A stretch of DNA of 29,575 nucleotides from positions 1 through 29,575 of the forward strand of contig DASYMB010000235.1 of assembly GCA_036009285.1 (NCBI GenBank), written 5' to 3'. Below the pieces are notes generated by a model. That model was not told where the DNA came from, made no database searches, and saw only the letters and a list, made by a program, of their open reading frames with translations. Source of the stretch: Pyrinomonadaceae bacterium (lineage in GTDB: Bacteria > Acidobacteriota > Blastocatellia > Pyrinomonadales > Pyrinomonadaceae). A program made the position numbers and the translations under genes. Positions 1,646 to 23,598 of this stretch are shown here, piece after piece; position 1 is the stretch's first letter, and each line of letters begins with the position of its first letter.

Positions 1646-3385
1646 CTACTTAGTACCTCCTTCGAGTTGCTTGAGGCGATCTTCCATCATCTTCCTGACC
1701 ACCTTGATGAAATTCTGTTTCTCGGCCGGAGCGGAGCCCGCTTGTTGTTCCAACGCGGAAAGCATCATTTTGATCTGTTCCGCTTTCGCCTGCGAGAGCC
1801 TGGCTTTCATCTGGCCGATCTGGGCTTTCTCCTGATCGGACAATCCTGCGAGGGCGGGATCTTCCTGCGAGCCCTCCGCTTTCTTTTTCGTGTTGTAGAT
1901 CGCGATAGTACGATTCTCTGGTTTGAAGTAGGTATTAGCGACTCGACGAATATCTTCAGGCGTCACGGCCTGATGGCGCGCCGGATCGGTGTTGATAGTT
2001 TCCCAACCGCGGTTATTGTCGCGCAGCAGCAGTTGGACCATCAGCCCGAAGTTTGACTGGATACTGCGAAACACGCCGGCCGCATACTGGTTCTTCACCT
2101 TCTGCAACTCTTTTTCGTCAACCAACTCCTGCTGCAGTCTTTCGATCTCTTTGTAGAGCGCCTGCTCCACTTCCTCAGGCGTCTTGCCCGGCTTGGCGAC
2201 CCCGCTCAACTGGAAGAAGCCCTCATACTTGCGCGCGTCTCCAAAGGCGTTGGCGCTGTTGGCGACTGCCTGCTGCAGCACGAGCGCCTTGTAAAGCCGG
2301 CCCGTGCGACCGCTGAGCACGCTGCCCAAAATGTCGAGAACGAAATCGTCCGGGTGGCCTTCCGCGACGGTGTGATAGCGGATGCGCACCTCCGGGACGG
2401 TATCGGCATAGGCGACCATGCGCTTCTCGGCGAGTTGAGGCATCTCGCTGGTGCGCACCGGCTCGGGCGCGCGCGGTCCACGCGGGAGACGGCCGAAGTA
2501 TTGCTGCGCGAGTTCTTTCGCGCGCGCCGGATCGACGTCGCCGACGAGGCAGGCGGTCAGATTGTTTGGCGCATAGTTAACGGCAAAATAGTCGAGCGCC
2601 TCTGCGCGCGTGATGCCTTCGAGATCGCTGGGCCAACCGACGACGGGCCAACCGTATGGTGACGACTGCCAGAACATCGCTTCGTATTCCTCATCAAACT
2701 TGCCGGTCGGCGTGCTGTCGGTGCGCAGACGCCTTTCTTCATGGACCACGTCCCGCTCGGAATAAAACTCACGGAAGACGGGATTCCGGAGACGATCTGA
2801 TTCCATCCAGAACCAGAGTTCGAGTTTGTTAGCCGGGACGTTTATGAAATAGACAGTGAAATCGTTGCTGGTGCCGGCGTTCATGCCGGAGCCGCCTGCG
2901 GTCGTATAGATCCGGTCAAACTCATCCTTGACCATTAAATCCTTTTCGCGTTTGGTCAGATCGTCAAACTTCGCGAGCAATTCTTTGTAACGCTCCGAGC
3001 GATACTGCGGGTCCTTGCTGTCGGAGATTTCGCCGTGCCGTGCTTTCAGGATGAGTGTCTGTTGTTCCTTACGAAGCTCGGCCCGCACGTCGTCCATTTC
3101 CTTTATGAGTTGTAGATTTCCAGCGATGTCTTTGGTGCCGATGGCGTGCGTACCCTTGAACATCATGTGCTCGAAGAGATGCGAGAGGCCGGTGATACCC
3201 GGGCGTTCGTTGACTGAACCGACGTGGGCCACCCAGCCGGCGGCAATGTTTGGATCGCCCTTGCGCGGTACCAGCAGCAGGCGCATCCCGTTGTCGAGGG
3301 TGATTTCCTGCACCGGCACTTTCTGCGCCGCGGCAAACTGCACGCACAGCAGTAAAGCCAGAAGACTGAGAGAGATTTTTTTCAT
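1646..3385 (-). CDS. M16 zinc peptidase, catalytic subunit, with signal peptide
   Basis: Intact inverted zinc motif GLSHLFEHMMFKG, plus NAGTS.DFT and ERDVVHEERR. Signal peptide MKKISLSLLALLLCVQFAAA. Confidence 0.92.
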   Translation of the reverse strand: MKKISLSLLALLLCVQFAAAQKVPVQEITLDNGMRLLLVPRKGDPNIAAGWVAHVGSVNERPGITGLSHLFEHMMFKGTHAIGTKDIAGNLQLIKEMDDVRAELRKEQQTLILKARHGEISDSKDPQYRSERYKELLAKFDDLTKREKDLMVKDEFDRIYTTAGGSGMNAGTSNDFTVYFINVPANKLELWFWMESDRLRNPVFREFYSERDVVHEERRLRTDSTPTGKFDEEYEAMFWQSSPYGWPVVGWPSDLEGITRAEALDYFAVNYAPNNLTACLVGDVDPARAKELAQQYFGRLPRGPRAPEPVRTSEMPQLAEKRMVAYADTVPEVRIRYHTVAEGHPDDFVLDILGSVLSGRTGRLYKALVLQQAVANSANAFGDARKYEGFFQLSGVAKPGKTPEEVEQALYKEIERLQQELVDEKELQKVKNQYAAGVFRSIQSNFGLMVQLLLRDNNRGWETINTDPARHQAVTPEDIRRVANTYFKPENRTIAIYNTKKKAEGSQEDPALAGLSDQEKAQIGQMKARLSQAKAEQIKMMLSALEQQAGSAPAEKQNFIKVVRKMMEDRLKQLEGGTK

Positions 3386-3866: not shown

Positions 3867-5939
3867 ATGAAGATATTCAGGCCTGGCTTTCCCCAAATGT
3901 TTCCCAAACAACTCTTATCACTAGGCGCGCTTCTGGTTGTCGCCATCTCCGCAAGCGCGCAGCAGCCGGCGCCGCAACAGGCCGCCACGCACTTCGACAT
4001 AACCAACTATCGCATCGAAGCCCAGTTGATTCCGGACCAGCACCTGTTGCGCGCCGGCGCCGACGTGACCGTCATTCCACAGGAAGCAACGCGTTCACTC
4101 GTGTTCGAGCTCAACGGTTCACTGCGCGTGGAGAGTATCGATCGCGACGGCAAACCGCTGACCGGTTTTGTTCAGGATGCGGTTGGCGTGGGTTCGCTTG
4201 GACCAAGCGTCCGCGTGGATCTCGGCCAGGTGGTGCCAGCGCAGCAGCCGCTCACGCTGCGCTTCCGCTGGAGTGGAGCGTTGCTTTCGCCCGAAGGTGG
4301 ACCGCTGGCGACCAAGCGCCTCGCTTACGTTGGTCCTGAAGGTTCTTATTTGATGTACGCCTCGCGCTGGTTTCCTTTTCACGACTACGCTGCCGATCGC
4401 GCCACTTCCGACATCACGCTGATCGTTCCTACGGGCTTGCAAGTTGCCGGCACCAGCGACGACGCAGTTGCGCCCCTCCCGTCGCCGAAGGAAGGCGCCA
4501 CGCGCTATCACTTCGTCCATCGCCAACCGGTCCTCGTCGGAAACTTTGCCGCGGGCCAGTACATCAACCGAAACCTGCGCTTTGGAAATTACGAGATACA
4601 GTTTTACGCGAAGCCCGGGAGCGAGGGCCGCATCAACGGCTACGCCGAGATGATGGGCCAGGTGTTGGAGTTCTACTCAAAACAGTATGGCGCTCCAGTG
4701 TTCGGCAATCGCCTGGTGGTGGCCCAGGTTGACGATGACAGTCTCGACACTTATTCAGGCCAGGGAATTATCTTCCTCGCGTCGAGGCTGTTTGACTCTT
4801 CACGTCCGATGCCCGAAGAAAAACTGGCGCGCGAAGTTGCTTATCAATGGTGGGGACAGACAGTCGGGCTGAAGTCGTTTGACGATGCGTGGATTTCGCA
4901 GGGGCTCGCTGAGTGGAGCGGGTTCGCCTTTCGCGAATCCAACTTGACCGGCGGCGCGCTCGAAGCGGCCGAGCGAGAGCAACAGGAGCGCGCGCTGACA
5001 TTCGAGCAGACGGCCTCGATCGCCCGCGCCCCAAGCGCGCTCGATGATCAGTCGGCGGCGTATCAATCGATCGTATTTCACAAAGGCGCCATGGTGTTTC
5101 GCATGCTTCGTGAAAGCATGGGCAAAGAGAAGTTTGATCGGCTGCTCAAAAACTTCCTTGAGGAATATCGCGGCAAGAACGCCTCCATCGATGATTTTGA
5201 AAAGTTGGCATCGAGGGTGGCGGTGGAAAACATGCGCTATTTCTTCGCGCAGTGGGTGGAGGGAACCGGCGTGCCGGAGTTTAGCGTCGACTACCAGATC
5301 ATTCGCACGCGCTCGGGAAAGTTTCGCACTCGTGGCACCGTCAAGCAGACACTCGACGTGCTGCGGATGCCGGTGCAATTGATGTTGCGTGCCGAAGGCG
5401 ACAATCAAACGACGACGACGAGGATAGAAGGAAAGAGTGAGGACTTTGATTTCGAATCAAACGGCCAGCCGCTGGAAGTGGTTGTCGATCCTAACTTCAA
5501 AATCCTGCGCATATCCGACGACCTGCGTATCTCGATAATTGCGCGGCGCGGCATCGAGCAGATGAAGGAAGGTTCTTTCGCCGAAGCCCAGCAGCAGTTT
5601 GAAGCCGCGTTGAAGTTAGACCGTTCAAACTCCTGGGTCTATTACAACCTTGGGCTGCTTTATCTCGAACAGCGCAACTGGCAGCCGGCGCTCGACAATT
5701 TTGACGCGTCGCTTAATGGGACCTTGAAGCCTTCGTGGATCGAAGTGTGGGCACACATCAAGAAGGGCAACGCCTACGATGCCAAGGGCGAACGCAACCG
5801 CGCCGTATCGGAATACAACAAGGCGGTGCAGTCGGGCATTAATTACGACAACGCCCAGACAGTCGCAAAGAAATTTCTCGCCAGCCCCTACGATCCCAAG
5901 GCCGCGCAGTCCGCCGGGCTCATGTCGCCGGGGAATTAG
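3867..5939 (+). CDS. M1 aminopeptidase-fold protein with C-terminal TPR repeats; predicted catalytically inactive
   Basis: M1 layout: N-terminal beta domain, WFP, the zinc-site region, Y/F.KGAMVF.ML and DDF. The zinc motif reads REVAY-x18-Q. The C-terminus has TPR-like repeats (A...FEAALKLDRSNSWVYYNLGLLY). A signal peptide is present. The start is probably 3867 or 3897 rather than 3762. Confidence 0.85.
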   Translation: MKIFRPGFPQMFPKQLLSLGALLVVAISASAQQPAPQQAATHFDITNYRIEAQLIPDQHLLRAGADVTVIPQEATRSLVFELNGSLRVESIDRDGKPLTGFVQDAVGVGSLGPSVRVDLGQVVPAQQPLTLRFRWSGALLSPEGGPLATKRLAYVGPEGSYLMYASRWFPFHDYAADRATSDITLIVPTGLQVAGTSDDAVAPLPSPKEGATRYHFVHRQPVLVGNFAAGQYINRNLRFGNYEIQFYAKPGSEGRINGYAEMMGQVLEFYSKQYGAPVFGNRLVVAQVDDDSLDTYSGQGIIFLASRLFDSSRPMPEEKLAREVAYQWWGQTVGLKSFDDAWISQGLAEWSGFAFRESNLTGGALEAAEREQQERALTFEQTASIARAPSALDDQSAAYQSIVFHKGAMVFRMLRESMGKEKFDRLLKNFLEEYRGKNASIDDFEKLASRVAVENMRYFFAQWVEGTGVPEFSVDYQIIRTRSGKFRTRGTVKQTLDVLRMPVQLMLRAEGDNQTTTTRIEGKSEDFDFESNGQPLEVVVDPNFKILRISDDLRISIIARRGIEQMKEGSFAEAQQQFEAALKLDRSNSWVYYNLGLLYLEQRNWQPALDNFDASLNGTLKPSWIEVWAHIKKGNAYDAKGERNRAVSEYNKAVQSGINYDNAQTVAKKFLASPYDPKAAQSAGLMSPGN

Positions 5940-18902: not shown

Positions 18903-20087
18903 ATGTTGTTGCTCTACCCCCAGTTCATAAGATTTTTGTCAGTGTTGGCGTTTGCGCTACTTTTATTCATACCGGTAGCTGGCCAAAGCCTGACAACCGA
19001 CCCGGCAGCCAAACTATTGCCGGATAAGTTGGGAGAGTTTCGGGCTGCGGGCCCGCCGAGCAAGGTGACTCTTGAGGATTCCATTGAGCGTGGCGGCATC
19101 ACTTCGGCAGCTAGTCGCAATTATGTCTCAAAAGATGGCAGACGTTTTTACGTTACCCTGGTCACGACCGTTTCCGACTCCGGGGCTTATGCGCTGCTTA
19201 CGGAAGCCAAGTTGAGGGCCGAACACTTTGGAGACGATCACGGTACGGCTAACGCCGATATCGGAAGCGCGGGCTTTTCTGTTGGGAATGGACTTGCCAA
19301 CACCAATTTGTATTTCTTCAAAGGGCGAGCTTACGCCTCCCTTCATGAGGAGGGAAAACCGCGGAACGAGCAGGCCCTCTTGAACTTCGGCAAAACGCTT
19401 GCGGACGCGCTCGATAACGGCGCCGGAGAAATCCCGGTTCTCGTAAGGCACCTTCCTGATTGGCAGAATGTGCAATCACGGGTTTTATACGCGGTCAATC
19501 AAAACAGTCTAAAAAATCAGTTCAGCAATCAAGCAGTTATCGATGCGGTAAGTTTCGAGGGTGGAGCGGAAGCTGTCGTTGCGAGCTACGGTCCCGAGCA
19601 GCTCGCGATCGTGGAATTCAACACTGCTTCGCTGGCCACCGACAATAACCAACGCATTAGCGCAAAGATTCAGGAGTTGCAGGCCCAAGGCCAACCTGTC
19701 CCTTCGGCCTATCGTCGGGTTGGCAACTATGCGGTGTTTGTTTTTAACGCACCTAACCAGGAAGCGGCCGATAAACTAATCGACCAGGTGAAGTATCAGC
19801 AGGTGGTGCAATGGCTGGGGGAAAATCCCTTCTCCTATGAAAAAGCGACCAGGGAATTCACCGAGACTACCCTGGGAGTTTTTGTTTCCGTAGTAAAAGC
19901 GTCGGGTCTGGCTCTGGTGACCTGTCTCGCGGTCGGTGGCTTGTTCGGTACGCTGCTATTTAGAGCCAGGCGTTCGCAGCAGCGGGCCCGCGCGGCGTAT
20001 TCAGATTCCGATGCGATGCTCCGGCTAAACCTGGATGAGTTGACTCCGGAATCCGAGCCTGGCCGGCTACTCGGGCGTGGAAACTAG
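18903..20087 (+). CDS. Exported protein with C-terminal membrane anchor (DUF6599-like, tentative)
   Basis: N-terminal signal peptide, soluble domain, C-terminal TM (ALVTCLAVGGLFGTLLF) and basic tail. The family label is from recall only. Confidence 0.6.
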   Translation: MLLLYPQFIRFLSVLAFALLLFIPVAGQSLTTDPAAKLLPDKLGEFRAAGPPSKVTLEDSIERGGITSAASRNYVSKDGRRFYVTLVTTVSDSGAYALLTEAKLRAEHFGDDHGTANADIGSAGFSVGNGLANTNLYFFKGRAYASLHEEGKPRNEQALLNFGKTLADALDNGAGEIPVLVRHLPDWQNVQSRVLYAVNQNSLKNQFSNQAVIDAVSFEGGAEAVVASYGPEQLAIVEFNTASLATDNNQRISAKIQELQAQGQPVPSAYRRVGNYAVFVFNAPNQEAADKLIDQVKYQQVVQWLGENPFSYEKATREFTETTLGVFVSVVKASGLALVTCLAVGGLFGTLLFRARRSQQRARAAYSDSDAMLRLNLDELTPESEPGRLLGRGN

Positions 20088-20104
20088 ATCCTTCGCCTTT
20101 GTAA

Positions 20105-20137
20105 GAAAAAAACGCTGGTGCTAAGCCAGCGCTTTTC
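20105..20137 (-). terminator. Intrinsic terminator, stronger on the minus strand and possibly bidirectional
   Basis: CGCTGG/CCAGCG stem (20113-20131), followed by T7 on the minus strand and by CTTTTC on the plus strand. Confidence 0.7.
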
Positions 20138-20381
20138 TATGCATCTTACTTAAAACTAATGCGGGCTGCTGATCTTCCTGGGAGGCTCCCCCAAGCCCCG
20201 TCAGGACGTCGATCAGCAGCACCGCAATGATTGCTCATTGATTGCGTGCAAGCGTTAACTCCGTTCCCCCGAAAGAGCCACCGCCTACTTTTTCAAACGT
20301 GAGAGGACGCCTCCCCCAAAGCTTCCACTCACCGCAATCCTGAGCCTGACCCGATTACCCTTTATCTACCCTTCTTGTTCG
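20105..20381 (-). ncRNA. Candidate sigma54-dependent small RNA of about 275 nt
   Basis: Bounded by a consensus -24/-12 promoter and a minus-strand terminator. Contains a long stem (20160-20174 with 20211-20226) and three GGGGGA motifs. No convincing ORF. Confidence 0.5.
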
Positions 20382-20392
20382 GATTTGTCTTG

Positions 20393-20407
20393 GCAATGAG
20401 CGTGCCA
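20393..20407 (-). promoter_or_regulatory. Sigma54 (-24/-12) promoter
   Basis: The minus strand reads TGGCACG-CTCA-TTGC, an exact match to TGGCACG-N4-TTGC. Confidence 0.7.
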
Positions 20408-20557
20408 ATTGCGAGAAAGGAGTCTGCGAACGGATGGTTTGATATTTTCCTAGAAAATCGAGCGAGTGCGCGATCAGCCATCGCTGGAGGTGGGCCAGGC
20501 GCGCGTACAGCTTCAATACGTCCGGCACTTCCTAGCGAACGATAATCGCTCGCTGCT

Positions 20558-20710
20558 GTAGGACAGACATTCCTGTCTGTTCATATTTGTCAGAACCGCC
20601 TGCGGTAGCGGGCGGGCAATGGTCGGTGGACCCACCCGCTACCGCAGGTGGTTCTGACCTTTTGTGCAATCCGCGCGTTAATTCGCGGCTAATTTAGTTC
20701 ACGGCTAATT
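20558..20710. repeat. Composite repeat cluster: GTAG-type REP, family A doublet and family B arms
   Basis: GTAG-G-ACAGAC-ATTCCT-GTCTGT (20558-20580), family A doublet (20589-20658), ATCCGCGCGTTAATTCGCGGCTAATTT (20669-20695) and a second CGGCTAATTT that overlaps the aminotransferase 3' end. Confidence 0.8.
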
Positions 20711-21834
20711 TGGTGAAGAGCCTTTATCAATTCATCTATCTCTTCCAGCGTGTTGTAAAAATGAGGCGAGATTCTAAGCCGATCGCCACGCGGAGCCGTA
20801 ATAATGTTTCTCTTCTTCAGGTGAGCGTAAAGATCCATCGAAGTAAGTCCAGCCGTGTGACGTACACAAACAATTTGAGATTTTTCCATTGGTCGCCGCG
20901 AGCTGACCACCTCGTAACGAGTGTCCTGAAGCTGTTCACACAGACGATCTGTAAGCATTTCGAGGTGTGATTGGATCGGGCTGATGCCCACTTCGTTCAG
21001 GAGGTTCAGGCTCGCTTCCAACCCATGTATCAGGGCGACCGGACCCGTGCCGGTTTCCCAGGCAAGCGTTCCCCGGTTCCATCCCTGCGCGAAATTTCCA
21101 TAATCTTCCGGATTGGGAACGCTGGTCCAGCCTACCAGCGTTGGCTGGATACGCTCGCGCGCCCGAGTGGAAAGGTATAGCAGACCCACTCCTTCGGGCG
21201 TCAGCAGCCACTTATGACAAGCCGCCGCGGCGACGTCGACGAGCTCAGATTCGACGTCGATAGGAATTACCCCCAGTGCCTGAATCACATCAACCACCAG
21301 CAGCGCATCGTGGACACGAGCAGCGCGCCCGATGCGCTCCAGGTCTGCACGAAAGCCCGAAGCGTACTGAACCTGGCTAATGGCGACCAGGCGAGTTTTG
21401 CTATCAATCAATGCGATCAGTTCATCGATACCCACGCGACCCTGCCGCTCTTCACAGAGACGCACTTCCACACCCAACGTGTCTCGAATGCGTAGCCAGG
21501 GATAAAGGTTTGAAGGGAACTCGTTACGGAAGGTCACGAGGTTATCGCCCGGGCGCCAATCAAGGCCGTTTGCCACGGTGGAAAGTCCGTCGGAAGTATT
21601 TCGCACGAACGCGACTTGCTCTGCGCGGGCGCCAAGCAACTCGGCGACAAGCCGGCGGGCGTTTTCTTTAACTGCAATCCAATTCCGAAAGTTTACCGAT
21701 CCGTTTTCGGAAACGTCCGCCAGTTGCGACTGAATCGCCTTCAGTGTCGGAATGGGCGGCGCGGAAACAGCAGCGTGGTTCAAATAGATAACGCGCTCAG
21801 TAACTGGAAAGAGCGCGCGCAAGGTGTCGTTCAT
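20689..21834 (-). CDS. PLP-dependent class V aminotransferase / cysteine desulfurase-like protein
   Basis: YLNHAAVS, RNTSDG, EFPSN, ISQVQYASG, LLVVDVIQALG, CHKWLL.PEG.G (PLP Lys) and LRISPHFYN. Confidence 0.88.
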   Translation of the reverse strand: MNDTLRALFPVTERVIYLNHAAVSAPPIPTLKAIQSQLADVSENGSVNFRNWIAVKENARRLVAELLGARAEQVAFVRNTSDGLSTVANGLDWRPGDNLVTFRNEFPSNLYPWLRIRDTLGVEVRLCEERQGRVGIDELIALIDSKTRLVAISQVQYASGFRADLERIGRAARVHDALLVVDVIQALGVIPIDVESELVDVAAAACHKWLLTPEGVGLLYLSTRARERIQPTLVGWTSVPNPEDYGNFAQGWNRGTLAWETGTGPVALIHGLEASLNLLNEVGISPIQSHLEMLTDRLCEQLQDTRYEVVSSRRPMEKSQIVCVRHTAGLTSMDLYAHLKKRNIITAPRGDRLRISPHFYNTLEEIDELIKALHQISRELN

Positions 21835-21929: not shown

Positions 21930-22502
21930 CTAAGGGGCAAAGGCCCGGCCGTAAAATTCCTTGTACAGCCAACCGAGCACACGGGCTTCGGCGGTGCACA
22001 GCGTCTCCAGCCAGCAGTTGATCAGAAAGTCGTGACGTCCGCGCGCGGAAGGAATCTTTTCAGCTTCTTTCACCACCGAGCCACCGCTATCGAGATCCAG
22101 TTTATAGGCCTCAGCAGTTGATTCGTTGGCCTTCGACGCTGTATCAAGCGCATTGAGAAGTTGGCTGATCCACGCATGAAGCGCGCGCTCCGTGTCGTTT
22201 TCAGCGAGCGCTTGAATGATGCCGATGGCCAGACGATCCTCAGCTTGTTTGAAATCAAAAACTACTTCGCCCGCGCTGCGGCTCTGCTGCTGTTTCCACT
22301 GAAAGACCTCCTCAACGTTACGGTGCTTGATAATTGCGACGCGTTGATCGTAGTCCAGAAACCATTGAATGACCTCGGGAACGGAATCGAGATCGACGTT
22401 GCCGCGCGAGTCGCGCTGCAAGGGTGGAGGGTTGAGCGGAGATTCTTGCTGAGTAGTACCACCGTTATCTGAAGTTGATCGTGAAATTCCAGTACTCCCC
22501 AT
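21930..22502 (-). CDS. Hypothetical protein
   Basis: 190-aa ORF co-oriented with and 4 nt downstream of the asparaginase gene; predicted helical; no motif recognised. Confidence 0.7.
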   Translation of the reverse strand: MGSTGISRSTSDNGGTTQQESPLNPPPLQRDSRGNVDLDSVPEVIQWFLDYDQRVAIIKHRNVEEVFQWKQQQSRSAGEVVFDFKQAEDRLAIGIIQALAENDTERALHAWISQLLNALDTASKANESTAEAYKLDLDSGGSVVKEAEKIPSARGRHDFLINCWLETLCTAEARVLGWLYKEFYGRAFAP

Positions 22503-22506
22503 TGGT

Positions 22507-23598
22507 CTAACCCTGTGTGTTGCCGGCCAGCTTCAATTCAAACTCCGGCGTTACTTCCCCAACGATGTCTCCCCGGCGATTGCGCACCGGGAAAAAAGCG
22601 TAGCGCGCCACGGCCTCTAACGATTCATCAGCCAGGATTCCGAGCTGCCTTAGCGACTCGATCACGACCGTTGGTCGAGCACGGTGGTCGTCGCCATCCT
22701 CAATTTTCAGGGCTAGCCCCAGCCCGCGCGGCCAATCTGCAGAAGGCAATATGCCGACAGTGTAGACACCTTCGGCGCCTACCTTCGAGACCAACCGACC
22801 TTTCGCCGCGCGCATGATCTCCGTATCGAGACGATCCGCAGTGCCGCCGATTAATTCAGGATAGGAGGTCATTGCGGAAACGATTCGCGCGCAAGCATCT
22901 CTTGTCTTTCCCTCAAACTCCGCGGGCGGCGAGACGAGGCGCGCGTACATGAGCGCCATCGCCTTCACCGTAATTCCAAACACCGGAACACCACAGCCAT
23001 CCACGCCGACGGCGATGTCTTCGATAGGAACTCCGGAAAACTGCGCCACGGTTTTGCCGATCGCGAGTTGGACCGGGTTCGTCGGCTCGTCGTAAGTCTC
23101 GATGGGCGCACTCAGATGCAGAGCCAACGCTAACATCCCCGCGTGCTTGCCGGAACAGTTATTCTGCAACACGTTTGGCTTTTCGTTTTTTTCACGGAGC
23201 CGCCGAGCTACCGCCGCGGCGAAGGGTTCATGTGTGCCACACTTCAAAGCTTCAGGTTCCAAACCGATCTTCTCTAGCATCGACGCGGCTATCTCGGTGT
23301 GAATCGGTTCGCCGCTGTGCGATGCGCACGCGAGGGCAATCTCTTTTTCACTGAAACCAAAGCGATCCGCGGCGCCAGATGCGATAAGCGGAATTGCCTG
23401 ATGTGGTTTAGCGGAAGAACGCAGGTAGGTGACTGTTTCAGGTCGACCGAGGTGGGCGACCAGAGTTCCGTCAGGTTCCACGGCAACGACGTGGCCGCGA
23501 TGCCGTGATTCAGTGATACCGCCCCGCCTCACCTCCACCAGCGGTTCAGCGGACGGGATCTCTATGTTGTTTTCAGACGGTTGCCTTGACACCTGCAT
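22507..23598 (-). CDS. L-asparaginase II (Rhizobium AnsA type)
   Basis: VEVRRGG..ESRHRGH, RSSAKP.QA, LACASHSGE..H, NNCSGKHAGML, GVDGCG.P, KVGAEGV and LALKIEDG. Confidence 0.9.
   Translation of the reverse strand: MQVSRQPSENNIEIPSAEPLVEVRRGGITESRHRGHVVAVEPDGTLVAHLGRPETVTYLRSSAKPHQAIPLIASGAADRFGFSEKEIALACASHSGEPIHTEIAASMLEKIGLEPEALKCGTHEPFAAAVARRLREKNEKPNVLQNNCSGKHAGMLALALHLSAPIETYDEPTNPVQLAIGKTVAQFSGVPIEDIAVGVDGCGVPVFGITVKAMALMYARLVSPPAEFEGKTRDACARIVSAMTSYPELIGGTADRLDTEIMRAAKGRLVSKVGAEGVYTVGILPSADWPRGLGLALKIEDGDDHRARPTVVIESLRQLGILADESLEAVARYAFFPVRNRRGDIVGEVTPEFELKLAGNTQG

What the first reader, a model, noticed from the sequence alone, without database searches (positions are those of the whole stretch)
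20105..20407. Orphan sigma54 promoter and terminator frame a structured candidate sRNA of about 275 nt
Seen: in a roughly 500-bp gap between convergent genes, the minus strand has an exact TGGCACG-N4-TTGC (20407-20393). About 260 nt later comes a hairpin plus T7 terminator (20131-20105). Between them are a long stem (TGCGGGCTGCTGATC at 20160-20174 pairs with GATCAGCAGCACCGCA at 20211-20226, with an inner TCCTG/CAGGA helix) and three GGGGGA motifs (plus-strand TCCCCC at 20187, 20265 and 20312). Only a 30-codon ORF with a poor RBS fits. Inference: a stand-alone sigma54-activated regulatory RNA matching no family I recognise.
Basis: partly seen in the sequence, partly recalled or inferred. Interest (0 to 1): 0.7.

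Follow-up and report, generated by a model that had tools for sequence, protein, structure and literature searches.

The report
Sigma-54 small RNA with three G-loops
The gap holds a real, uncatalogued non-coding RNA gene of soil acidobacteria (family Pyrinomonadaceae) that is switched on through a sigma-54 promoter with its own private activator site and displays the same G-rich loop three times; it is a good new example of a known regulator type, and its targets are unknown.

Summary
The minus strand carries an exact TGGCACG-N4-TTGC (20407-20393), followed by a structured RNA of about 232 nt (about 277 nt if it runs to the second terminator). There is no Rfam match.

- **Conservation:** full-length homologues occur in more than 115 Pyrinomonadaceae genomes. 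Conservation starts at the promoter and ends after the long 3' hairpin.
- **Structure:** covariation supports 10 helices. Indels break every reading frame.
- **Promoter region:** a 17-bp dyad (TGTAY-N7-GTACR) lies upstream at about -101, -111, -123, -135 or -147, steps of about one helical turn. It is essentially unique in each genome searched.
- **Host factors:** rpoN, more than 25 activator genes and Hfq are present. CsrA and ProQ were not found.
- **Correction:** the conserved terminator is the long stem itself plus a U-tract. The 20105-20131 hairpin is a second, bidirectional terminator.
- **New:** a second, roughly 85-nt sRNA elsewhere in the genome carries the same CUUGGGGGAG loop and occurs in the same genera.
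- **Context:** the RNA always follows the asparaginase-II gene cluster.

The closest analogue is NrsZ of Pseudomonas. I class it as a new member of a known kind.

The parts
20504..20520 (-). Upstream activator site (UAS): the 17-bp dyad CGTATTGAAGCTGTACG. Family consensus TGTAY-N7-GTACR.
   Evidence: Found in 97 of 103 distinct loci. Its distance to the promoter clusters at about -101, -111, -123, -135 and -147. It is the only such dyad next to a sigma-54-like promoter in the own genome. It occurs once per genome in three near-complete relatives.
20445..20457 (-). Semi-conserved A/T-rich dyad TTTTCTAGGAAAA between the UAS and the promoter. It could be a bending site or a second regulator site.
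   Evidence: It shows as raised information content at about -52 to -40 in the anchored upstream alignment. Strict regex matches occur in only about a quarter of loci. Function not tested.
20393..20407 (-). Sigma-54 promoter, TGGCACG-N4-TTGC (-24 GG, -12 GC).
   Evidence: Exact and unique in the window. Invariant GG/GC spacing in all homologues, including the most distant genera. rpoN is present.
20150..20381 (-). sRNA gene, short form of about 232 nt. The 5' end is inferred 12 nt after the -12 GC. The 3' end lies in the U-rich tail after the long stem.
   Evidence: The BLAST and CM conservation block runs from the promoter to about 20150. RNAalifold and pair counts support the fold. Neither end has been mapped experimentally.
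20345..20381 (-). Single-stranded, purine-rich 5' leader. It carries AACAAGAAG (three ARN triplets), two AAGGGUA repeats and the most conserved stretch, AUCGGGUCAGGCUC.
   Evidence: At least 90% conserved within the genus. AUCGGGUCAGGCUC is kept in all four genera. Unpaired in the consensus fold.
20300..20331 (-). Hairpin A, with apical GCUUU-GGGG-GAGGC (GGGGGA at 20312-20317).
   Evidence: Helices 3 and 4 are 99.5-99.8% paired, with compensatory changes in helix 3. The loop is invariant.
20248..20288 (-). Hairpin B, with apical UCUUUC-GGGG-GAACGGA (GGGGGA at 20265-20270).
   Evidence: Helices 5 and 6. Five pairs of helix 5 show compensatory changes.
20234..20344 (-). Multi-branch domain closed by P1 (20342-20344 with 20234-20236) and P2 (20334-20337 with 20242-20245). 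It encloses hairpins A and B.
   Evidence: One P2 pair reads UA:34, CG:27, UG:10, and another reads CG:60, UA:11.
20161..20225 (-). Hairpin C, the first terminator stem. It has an apical GGGGCUU-GGGG-GAGCCUC (GGGGGA at 20187-20192) and is followed by the U-rich tail 20149-20159.
   Evidence: Helices 7-10. One pair reads CG:37, UA:20. A T-rich tail follows the stem directly in relatives, for example CCCGCATTTTTTTG.
20105..20131 (.). Second, bidirectional intrinsic terminator. It serves as a fail-safe for the sRNA (giving a form of about 277 nt) and as the terminator of the convergent DUF6599 gene.
   Evidence: The plus-strand scan also calls it a terminator. Its sequence is not conserved, but many relatives have a hairpin at a similar place.
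20689..21834 (-). Upstream same-strand neighbour: a class V aminotransferase / cysteine-desulfurase-like gene. It is part of the asparaginase-II cluster (22507-23598) that the RNA always follows.
   Evidence: Pfam and NCBIfam matches. Synteny in 115 loci. Across genera, only the asparaginase-II linkage is constant.

Best explanation
This is a stand-alone gene for a structured, non-coding small RNA. It is about 232 nt long, on the minus strand at about 20381-20150.

**How it is made (inferred).** RNA polymerase with sigma-54 binds TGGCACG-N4-TTGC. It is activated by a so far unidentified enhancer-binding protein bound to a dedicated 17-bp dyad about 100-150 bp upstream. Transcription ends at the long 3' hairpin plus U-tract, with a second terminator as a fail-safe.

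**How it most likely works (inferred).** The RNA acts in trans as an Hfq-assisted base-pairing regulator. It presents the same G-rich apical loop (YUU-GGGG-GAR) on three hairpins. These loops pair with C-rich stretches (about UCCCCCRA) in target RNAs. That is the architecture of NrsZ of Pseudomonas: sigma-54-driven, at least 226 nt, with three modules carrying one loop sequence that kiss an anti-Shine-Dalgarno segment and activate translation.

**What it may respond to (weak inference).** The constant position behind the asparaginase-II cluster and the NtrC-site-like dyad hint at nitrogen or amino-acid status as the signal.

**What is shown and what is not.** Shown: the sequence features, their joint conservation, the RNA structure, the lack of coding potential, and the uniqueness and phasing of the activator site. 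Inferred: transcription, Hfq binding, the targets and the signal.
For: **Promoter**
- The match is exact and unique in the window.
- It is conserved in every homologue, including genera that score only 30-52 bits with the model.
- rpoN and about 25 activator genes are in the genome.

**Activator site**
- Present in 97 of 103 loci.
- Its spacing is quantised in steps of about 11 bp.
- It occurs once per genome, always at this gene.

**RNA**
- The fold has z = -6.1.
- Of 54 pairs, 98.6% are paired and 20 show compensatory change, against 4-9 in slid controls. None of 500 shuffles reached the observed value.
- The spacing between loops A and B varies over 44-53 nt, with all three residues mod 3 about equally frequent.
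- No Rfam family matches.

**Trans-acting, Hfq-type features**
- Terminator hairpin plus U-tail, and an ARN-rich 5' leader.
- Hfq found in 5 of 5 genomes. CsrA and ProQ found in 0 of 5.

**Loop as the functional module**
- The loop is invariant across 73 sequences that are less than 90% identical to each other.
- It is re-used in a second conserved sRNA that occurs in the same genera.

**Analogue and context**
- The NrsZ architecture and mechanism are as described in PMC4253122.
- Linkage to asparaginase-II holds in four genera.
Against: - No expression data exist.
- No convincing target was found. The complementary motif YTCCCCCRA is not over-represented: 46 sites in the genome, 3 of them the RNA gene itself, so 43 others. 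Of the 43, 12 are intergenic, which is only about twice the intergenic share of the genome.
- For the best candidate, a TonB-type receptor leader, BLAST found no homologue of the leader in 40 genus genomes. The matches were to an unrelated short repeat.
- The neighbouring DUF6599 gene has a C-run at its start only in this genome.
- G-rich seeds cannot block ribosome-binding sites, which is the commonest sRNA mechanism.
- A 4-nt GGGG loop is small for a kissing interaction unless the weak U.G closing pairs open.
- The activator is not encoded nearby, so the signal is a guess.
Confidence: 0.5

Rival explanations
1. The RNA is a protein decoy or molecular mimic. The three copies of the loop titrate an RNA-binding protein (not CsrA) or an RNase adaptor that normally binds the single-loop sibling sRNA. 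This would resemble GlmY protecting GlmZ by sequestering RapZ, or CsrB/RsmZ sequestering CsrA.
For: - The motif is repeated identically in hairpin loops.
- A sibling sRNA carries one copy of the same loop in its terminator hairpin and a shared AGAUAARGG stretch.
- The two RNAs have the same genus distribution.
- In genus g23 both hairpin C and the sibling loop read CAC-GGGG-GAG instead of CUU-GGGG-GAG.
- The two RNAs do not pair with each other.
- A sigma-54 promoter with a private activator site is also how glmY is driven (established knowledge).
- No mRNA target was found.
Against: - CsrA and ProQ were not found in 5 genomes, 4 of them at least 97% complete, so there is no candidate protein.
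- Three sites are few for a sponge. From memory, CsrB and RsmZ carry many more GGA motifs.
- The parallel change in g23 could be gene conversion rather than co-evolution.
Confidence: 0.28
2. The RNA is a sponge. The G-rich loops soak up a C-rich-loop sRNA (of the 6C, RoxS or sX13 type) or another C-rich RNA.
For: The loops are the mirror image of the C-rich loops of known sRNA families (PMC6486639 and PMC3771888, listed).
Against: Scanning the own genome for hairpins whose loop is the complement of the motif found only this RNA and its sibling. No C-rich-loop sRNA is known or was seen in this lineage.
Confidence: 0.07
3. It is not an independent gene. It is the 3' UTR of the aminotransferase / asparaginase-II operon, with the 'promoter' a chance match, or it is released by processing.
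For: It lies on the same strand as the cluster and always directly behind it.
Against: - Conservation begins exactly at the promoter, not upstream of it.
- The upstream gene has its own hairpins.
- The promoter and the phased activator site are kept even where the upstream gene differs between genera.
Confidence: 0.05
4. It encodes a small protein, or is a dual-function RNA.
For: A GTG-started frame of about 24 codons is open in 90 of 120 distinct sequences.
Against: That frame starts inside a helix and has no ribosome-binding site. Indels between the conserved loops fall in all three phases (40/40/33), so the peptide changes frame between species.
Confidence: 0.03

Closest known systems
NrsZ of Pseudomonas aeruginosa (PMC4253122)
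   Same: - Transcribed from an RpoN promoter with an NtrC-type activator.
- Primary transcript of at least 226 nt, against about 232 nt here.
- Three similar stem-loop modules displaying one identical purine-rich loop sequence.
- Not translated, and acts in trans.
- Sits next to nitrogen-metabolism genes.
   Different: - No sequence or Rfam relationship.
- The loop here is UUGGGGGAG, not ACAGGCAG.
- Two of the three hairpins here are enclosed in a multi-branch domain rather than lying in tandem.
- Processing into modules is unknown here.
- This RNA follows an asparaginase-II cluster, not ntrBC.
- The activator and the target are unknown.
GlmY / GlmZ of Enterobacteriaceae
   Same: A sigma-54 promoter is served by a dedicated activator whose sites occur almost only at the sRNA gene. 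There is a pair of sRNAs that share a structural module. This suggests possible decoy logic.
   Different: No homology (no Rfam hit). The sibling here appears to use a sigma-70-type -10 box and other upstream sites. No RapZ-like partner is identified. The activator is not adjacent.
Qrr sRNAs of Vibrio (LuxO plus sigma-54)
   Same: Sigma-54 and a response-regulator-type activator act chiefly through small RNA genes. These are Hfq-dependent trans-acting RNAs with a terminator and U-tail.
   Different: Qrr RNAs are about 100 nt, occur in multiple copies and carry a single-stranded seed. There is no sequence relation.
CsrB / RsmY / RsmZ protein-sponge RNAs
   Same: A short G-rich motif containing GGA is repeated in hairpin loops.
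   Different: CsrA was not found in any of 5 genomes. There are only three copies here. The promoter is sigma-54 rather than GacA-dependent sigma-70.
C-rich-loop sRNAs (6C, RoxS/RsaE, sX13)
   Same: Several hairpins each display the same homopolymer-rich loop, used as a repeated seed.
   Different: The polarity is opposite. G-runs here would bind C-rich RNA, not Shine-Dalgarno sequences.

Membership tests
Sigma-54-dependent promoter | GG at -24 and GC at -12 with fixed spacing (TGGCAC-N5-TTGC) | tested here: met
   Exact match at 20407-20393. Kept in all homologues, including distant genera.
Sigma-54-dependent promoter | The host encodes RpoN and enhancer-binding proteins | tested here: met
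   PF04552 matches once and PF00158 matches about 25 times in the own genome.
Sigma-54-dependent promoter | Upstream activator site about 80-150 bp away, dependent on the face of the helix | tested here: met
   The dyad is present in 97 of 103 loci. Distances cluster at -101, -111, -123, -135 and -147.
Sigma-54-dependent promoter | Transcription requires RpoN and an activator | not testable with these tools
   Needs RNA data or genetics.
Structured non-coding RNA gene | Secondary structure supported by compensatory changes | tested here: met
   20 of 54 pairs show compensatory change, in 109 cells, against 5-23 cells in slid controls. None of 500 shuffles reached the observed value.
Structured non-coding RNA gene | No conserved reading frame | tested here: met
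   Inter-loop spacing falls in all three phases, 40/40/33. Start codons are not conserved.
Structured non-coding RNA gene | Intrinsic terminator at the end of the conserved block | tested here: met
   A long hairpin plus T-rich tail is conserved. A second hairpin plus T7 lies at 20105-20131.
Any Rfam family (including NrsZ, GlmY/Z, Qrr, CsrB/Rsm, 6S, Acido-1) | Covariance-model match at the gathering score | tested here: not met
   No hit at the gathering score over the window. Only chance-level hits with E up to 10 in 19950-20750.
CsrB/RsmZ-type CsrA sponge | The cognate CsrA/RsmA protein is present in the genome | tested here: not met
   PF02599 was found in 0 of 5 genomes, 4 of them at least 97% complete. 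Positive controls rang.
Hfq-dependent trans-acting sRNA | Hfq present; terminator with U-tail; ARN or U-rich Hfq sites | tested here: met
   Hfq was found in 5 of 5 genomes. The U-tail and the AACAAGAAG leader are conserved. Binding itself was not tested.
Hfq-dependent trans-acting sRNA | Conserved complementary target sites in mRNAs | tested here: inconclusive
   No enriched or conserved site was found in the own genome or in neighbouring genes. Only one genome could be scanned in full.
NrsZ-like modular sRNA (by function, not homology) | Three hairpin modules with one identical loop, under RpoN control | tested here: met
   Loops A, B and C all read YUU(Y)-GGGG-GAR. NrsZ features were taken from PMC4253122.
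NrsZ-like modular sRNA (by function, not homology) | Processing into modules; kissing with an anti-SD segment; NtrC dependence | not testable with these tools
   Needs RNA-seq or Northern blots and reporter assays.

The most novel reading that the evidence does not exclude
The two RNAs form a hierarchical mimic pair in a lineage without CsrA or ProQ. A dedicated sigma-54 activator has this gene as its only strong site in the genome. When it fires, the three-loop RNA floods the cell with copies of the terminator-loop module of the short sibling sRNA. This titrates an as yet unknown loop-specific RNA-binding protein or RNase adaptor, and so controls the sibling's stability or activity. That would be GlmY/GlmZ-like logic invented independently in Acidobacteriota, pointing to a new RNA-binding protein family.
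Probability: 0.2. Interest if true: 0.72.

Novelty: new member of a known kind. Interest (0 to 1): 0.5.

Why it matters
My searches of the held paper library found no described small-RNA regulator in Acidobacteriota, which are among the most abundant soil bacteria. This locus gives a clean, testable case with five parts:

- a near-consensus sigma-54 promoter;
- a private, helically phased activator site that can serve as bait to find the activator;
- a well-supported RNA structure;
- a thrice-repeated invariant loop that is an obvious mutational target;
- a sibling RNA that shares that loop.

It also adds a G-rich-loop counterpart to the well-known C-rich-loop sRNAs. The covariance model can be used to annotate the family in Pyrinomonadaceae genomes and soil metatranscriptomes. 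As a kind of thing, a sigma-54-driven sRNA, it is not new. This scan has already met many of them in other lineages.

Tried and rejected
**Expression.** There are no RNA data.

**Known families.** Rfam at the gathering and E-value thresholds gave only chance hits: miRNA-like hits on the REP hairpin, and sroD at E = 0.33.

**CsrA sponge.** Rejected, because CsrA was not found. ProQ was also not found.

**Target search in the own genome.**
- The complement motif YTCCCCCRA occurs 46 times, no more than a rough composition-based estimate of about 130.
- Three of the 46 sites are the RNA gene itself. Of the other 43, 12 are intergenic.
- The best-looking site lies 9 nt before the start of a TonB-type receptor gene on contig C151. 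BLAST found no homologue of that leader in 40 genus genomes. The matches were to an unrelated short repeat.
- A site near clpX lies inside a small upstream ORF.
- The start regions of neighbouring genes show nothing conserved.

**Pairing between the two sRNAs.** Duplex energy is within the range of shuffles, and the cofold gain is only -2 kcal/mol.

**Regulon of the activator.** No second copy of the dyad was found next to a sigma-54-like promoter, so the signal could not be read from co-regulated genes.

**Activator gene nearby.** None lies in the 29.6-kb window.

**Sigma-54 promoter before the asparaginase gene.** None is evident.

**Coding potential.** Rejected.

**Literature.** The searches held no paper describing this RNA, or any sRNA from Acidobacteriota.

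Full report
**1. What is in the sequence**

Reading the minus strand, the gap lies between two genes. The class V aminotransferase gene ends at 20689 on the minus strand. The convergent DUF6599 gene ends at 20087 on the plus strand (Pfam). In order, the gap holds:

- a long REP-like inverted repeat (about 20586-20664) and a small hairpin (20561-20582);
- a 17-bp dyad, CGTATTGAAGCTGTACG (20520-20504);
- an A/T-rich dyad, TTTTCTAGGAAAA (20457-20445);
- an exact TGGCACG-N4-TTGC (20407-20393);
- about 230 nt of highly structured sequence;
- a U-rich tail (20159-20149);
- a second hairpin plus T7 (20131-20105).

The promoter match is the only exact one in the window. Matches with up to two mismatches are at chance level, 14 against 12.5 expected. 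About 0.014 exact matches would be expected in 2 x 29.6 kb. The 284-nt stretch folds at -122.1 kcal/mol, against -90.8 +/- 5.1 for dinucleotide shuffles (z = -6.1). No Rfam family matches at the gathering score. Nothing meaningful appears with E up to 10.

**2. Conservation**

The window is contig C235 of a 3.27-Mb, 77%-complete metagenome-assembled genome. Record titles of related contigs place it in Acidobacteriota, Blastocatellia, Pyrinomonadaceae.

- **BLAST in the genus.** It finds one copy in 34 of 36 genomes of the same genus at 79-91% identity, and none in 24 genomes of other families. The conserved block begins at the T of TGGCACG (20407) and ends at about 20150. Sequence on either side does not align.
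- **Pattern scan.** Of these, 117 carry the full-length element.
- **Covariance model.** Model R1 was run over 151 genomes of the class. It finds the RNA in four genera of the family: g1 7/7, g21 3/3, g23 2/2 and g24 2/2. It was not found in 19 genomes of genus g22 or in nine other families.
- **Distant copies.** Even copies scoring only 30-52 bits keep TGGCAC-N5-TTGC, a GTAC-type upstream dyad, the core AUCGGGUCAGGCUC, G-rich loops and a U-tail.

**3. It is an RNA, and it is not translated**

I used an alignment of 73 sequences that are less than 90% identical to each other (A1). RNAalifold predicts 54 pairs in 10 helices.

- Pair counts give 98.6% paired cells.
- 20 pairs show changes on both sides (109 cells). 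Controls with the partner slid by 1-3 columns give 4-9 pairs (5-23 cells). None of 500 shuffles reached the observed value.
- Clear examples are P2 (UA:34, CG:27; CG:60, UA:11) and the terminator stem (CG:37, UA:20).

The architecture has three parts: an unpaired purine-rich 5' leader; a multi-branch domain (P1, P2) enclosing hairpins A and B; and a long 3' hairpin C. Each hairpin ends in a GGGG tetraloop within an invariant YUU(Y)-GGGG-GAR.

The distance between loops A and B varies from 44 to 53 nt, with residues mod 3 of 40/40/33. No frame is therefore preserved. The one recurrent open frame starts inside a helix and changes frame between species.

**4. Promoter architecture**

The upstream dyad (consensus TGTAY-N7-GTACR) is present in 97 of 103 distinct loci. 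Its distance to the promoter is not continuous. It clusters at about -101, -111, -123, -135 and -147, which are steps of about 11 bp or one helical turn. This is the behaviour expected of a face-of-helix-dependent enhancer site.

The dyad resembles the 17-bp NtrC site TGCACC-N5-GGTGCA in length and symmetry. That comparison is from my own knowledge and was not tested.

The dyad is private to this gene.
- **Own assembly:** only 4 such dyads exist, and only this one lies next to a sigma-54-like promoter.
- **Three near-complete relatives:** the stricter pattern occurs exactly once, always just upstream of this RNA (coordinates compared).

The genome encodes RpoN and about 25 sigma-54 activators. 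None lies within the 29.6-kb window. So an activator with essentially one strong site acts through an sRNA gene, as LuxO does for Qrr and GlrR does for GlmY.

**5. The 3' end**

The conserved terminator-like element is hairpin C followed directly by a T-rich tail. In many relatives the tail reads CCCGCATTTTTTTG. In this window it is weaker, AUUAGUUUU.

Two forms are therefore plausible, of about 232 nt and about 277 nt. In this genome read-through to the second terminator may be substantial. Only RNA data can decide.

**6. Context**

Within the genus, the RNA lies behind the aminotransferase gene in 115 loci and faces DUF6599 in 127 loci. Across genera the intervening genes come and go, but the RNA always directly follows, on the same strand, the cluster headed by an asparaginase-II (PF06089) gene:

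- g23: asparaginase, 190-aa ORF, aminotransferase, RNA;
- g21: asparaginase, 190-aa ORF, RNA;
- g24: asparaginase, RNA.

Together with the NtrC-like dyad, this is a weak hint at nitrogen or amino-acid control.

**7. A sibling RNA**

I scanned the own genome for the loop motif inside hairpins. The search found only this RNA and one more site, on contig C219 (about 4923-4834, minus strand). That site is a 13-bp terminator hairpin with the loop CUU-GGGG-GAGG and a U-tail. It is preceded by a small hairpin and a stretch AGAUAAAGG that resembles the AGAUAAGGG of the leader here.

- It is present in 37 of 40 genus genomes, and its roughly 67-nt core is up to 97% identical.
- The stem shows compensatory changes.
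- It has no Rfam match.
- It has a TAnnAT -10-like box and conserved upstream dyads, but no sigma-54 promoter.
- A covariance model (R2) finds it in g1 7/7, g21 3/3 and g23 2/2, and not in g22. These are the same genera that carry the three-loop RNA. The genera are one clade, so this is not independent evidence.
- In g23 both hairpin C of the large RNA and the sibling loop read CAC-GGGG-GAG.
- The two RNAs are not complementary to each other.

The loop is thus a shared functional module.

**8. Mechanism**

Hfq is present in all five genomes tested. CsrA and ProQ were not found, although four of those genomes are at least 97% complete and the controls rang. This removes the obvious sponge model.

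The closest functional analogue is NrsZ. It is induced by NtrB/C and RpoN, is at least 226 nt long, and has three modules with an identical loop. That loop kisses a segment of the rhlA leader and frees the Shine-Dalgarno sequence (PMC4253122). By analogy, I favour base pairing of the G-rich, Shine-Dalgarno-like loops with C-rich (anti-SD-like) segments.

My estimates:
- about 0.9 that this is a genuine sigma-54-dependent non-coding RNA gene;
- about 0.5 for the base-pairing mechanism;
- about 0.28 for a decoy or mimic model built on the sibling relationship.

My target search gave nothing convincing. It was limited to one incomplete genome.

**9. Novelty**

The family is absent from Rfam, and the literature searches held no paper describing it. 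Sigma-54-dependent sRNAs are a known kind. Earlier notes of this scan list many such genes in other uncultured lineages, including one different RNA in Acidobacteriota. One first-reader note appears to describe this same element in another genome, behind an aminotransferase operon (e1-3907600). Another note reports a triple TCCCCCAAA cluster in a different context (e1-4018832). I could not examine that one.

**10. Caveats**

- Genomes marked unpublished entered some counts. G031 is locus L002, one of the 73 rows of A1, and is counted. G166 is counted. G187 is counted. No conclusion depends on them. The pattern holds in the public records.
- Relatives are not independent samples.

Noticed in passing
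G000 contig C219, about 4834-4923, minus strand (locus L161/L187; not in the window): A second uncatalogued sRNA of about 85 nt. It has a small 5' hairpin (UUCUCC-AUG-GGAGAA), the stretch AGAUAAAGG, then a 13-bp terminator hairpin with the same CUU-GGGG-GAGG loop and a U-tail. It is present in 37 of 40 genus genomes, with a core up to 97% identical. It occurs in genera g1, g21 and g23, all of which also carry the three-loop RNA (which is also found in g24). It has a TAnnAT -10-like box and conserved upstream dyads (TTGCA-N7-TGCAA, TTAC-N6-GTRA). No Rfam hit.
   Followed up: partly
window 20586-20664 (and 20561-20582): A long, near-perfect inverted repeat lies directly after the aminotransferase stop codon. 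It belongs to a genome-wide REP-like family: its core GGTAGCGGGTGG occurs 66 times in the 3.27-Mb assembly, against about 0.4 expected. Rfam gives only spurious miRNA-like hits on it.
   Followed up: partly
G000 contig C151, about 2920-2955, and many other contigs: Another short dispersed repeat. CGCAAACTAACAGTTTGC occurs 192 times in the assembly, and copies also occur in some genus relatives (G148, G189).
   Followed up: no
window 21930-23598 and loci L150-L156: The cluster upstream of the RNA is modular between genera. Asparaginase-II is always present. The 190-aa ORF without a Pfam match, and the class V aminotransferase, are present or absent by genus. The aminotransferase scores below every NCBIfam cut-off; the nearest models are the SufS/CsdA-like cysteine desulfurases.
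   Followed up: partly
G000 contig C67, about 2930-3110: Just upstream of clpX lies a small ORF. Its product resembles the second half of the ClpX zinc-ribbon (FICNECVE...). It ends about 60 nt before the clpX start.
   Followed up: no
whole genome G000: Although the assembly has about 25 sigma-54 activator genes, it holds only 5 TGGCAC-N5-TTGC sites, about the number expected by chance. Most sigma-54 promoters of this organism must therefore deviate from the textbook consensus. The sRNA promoter is the outstanding exception.
   Followed up: no
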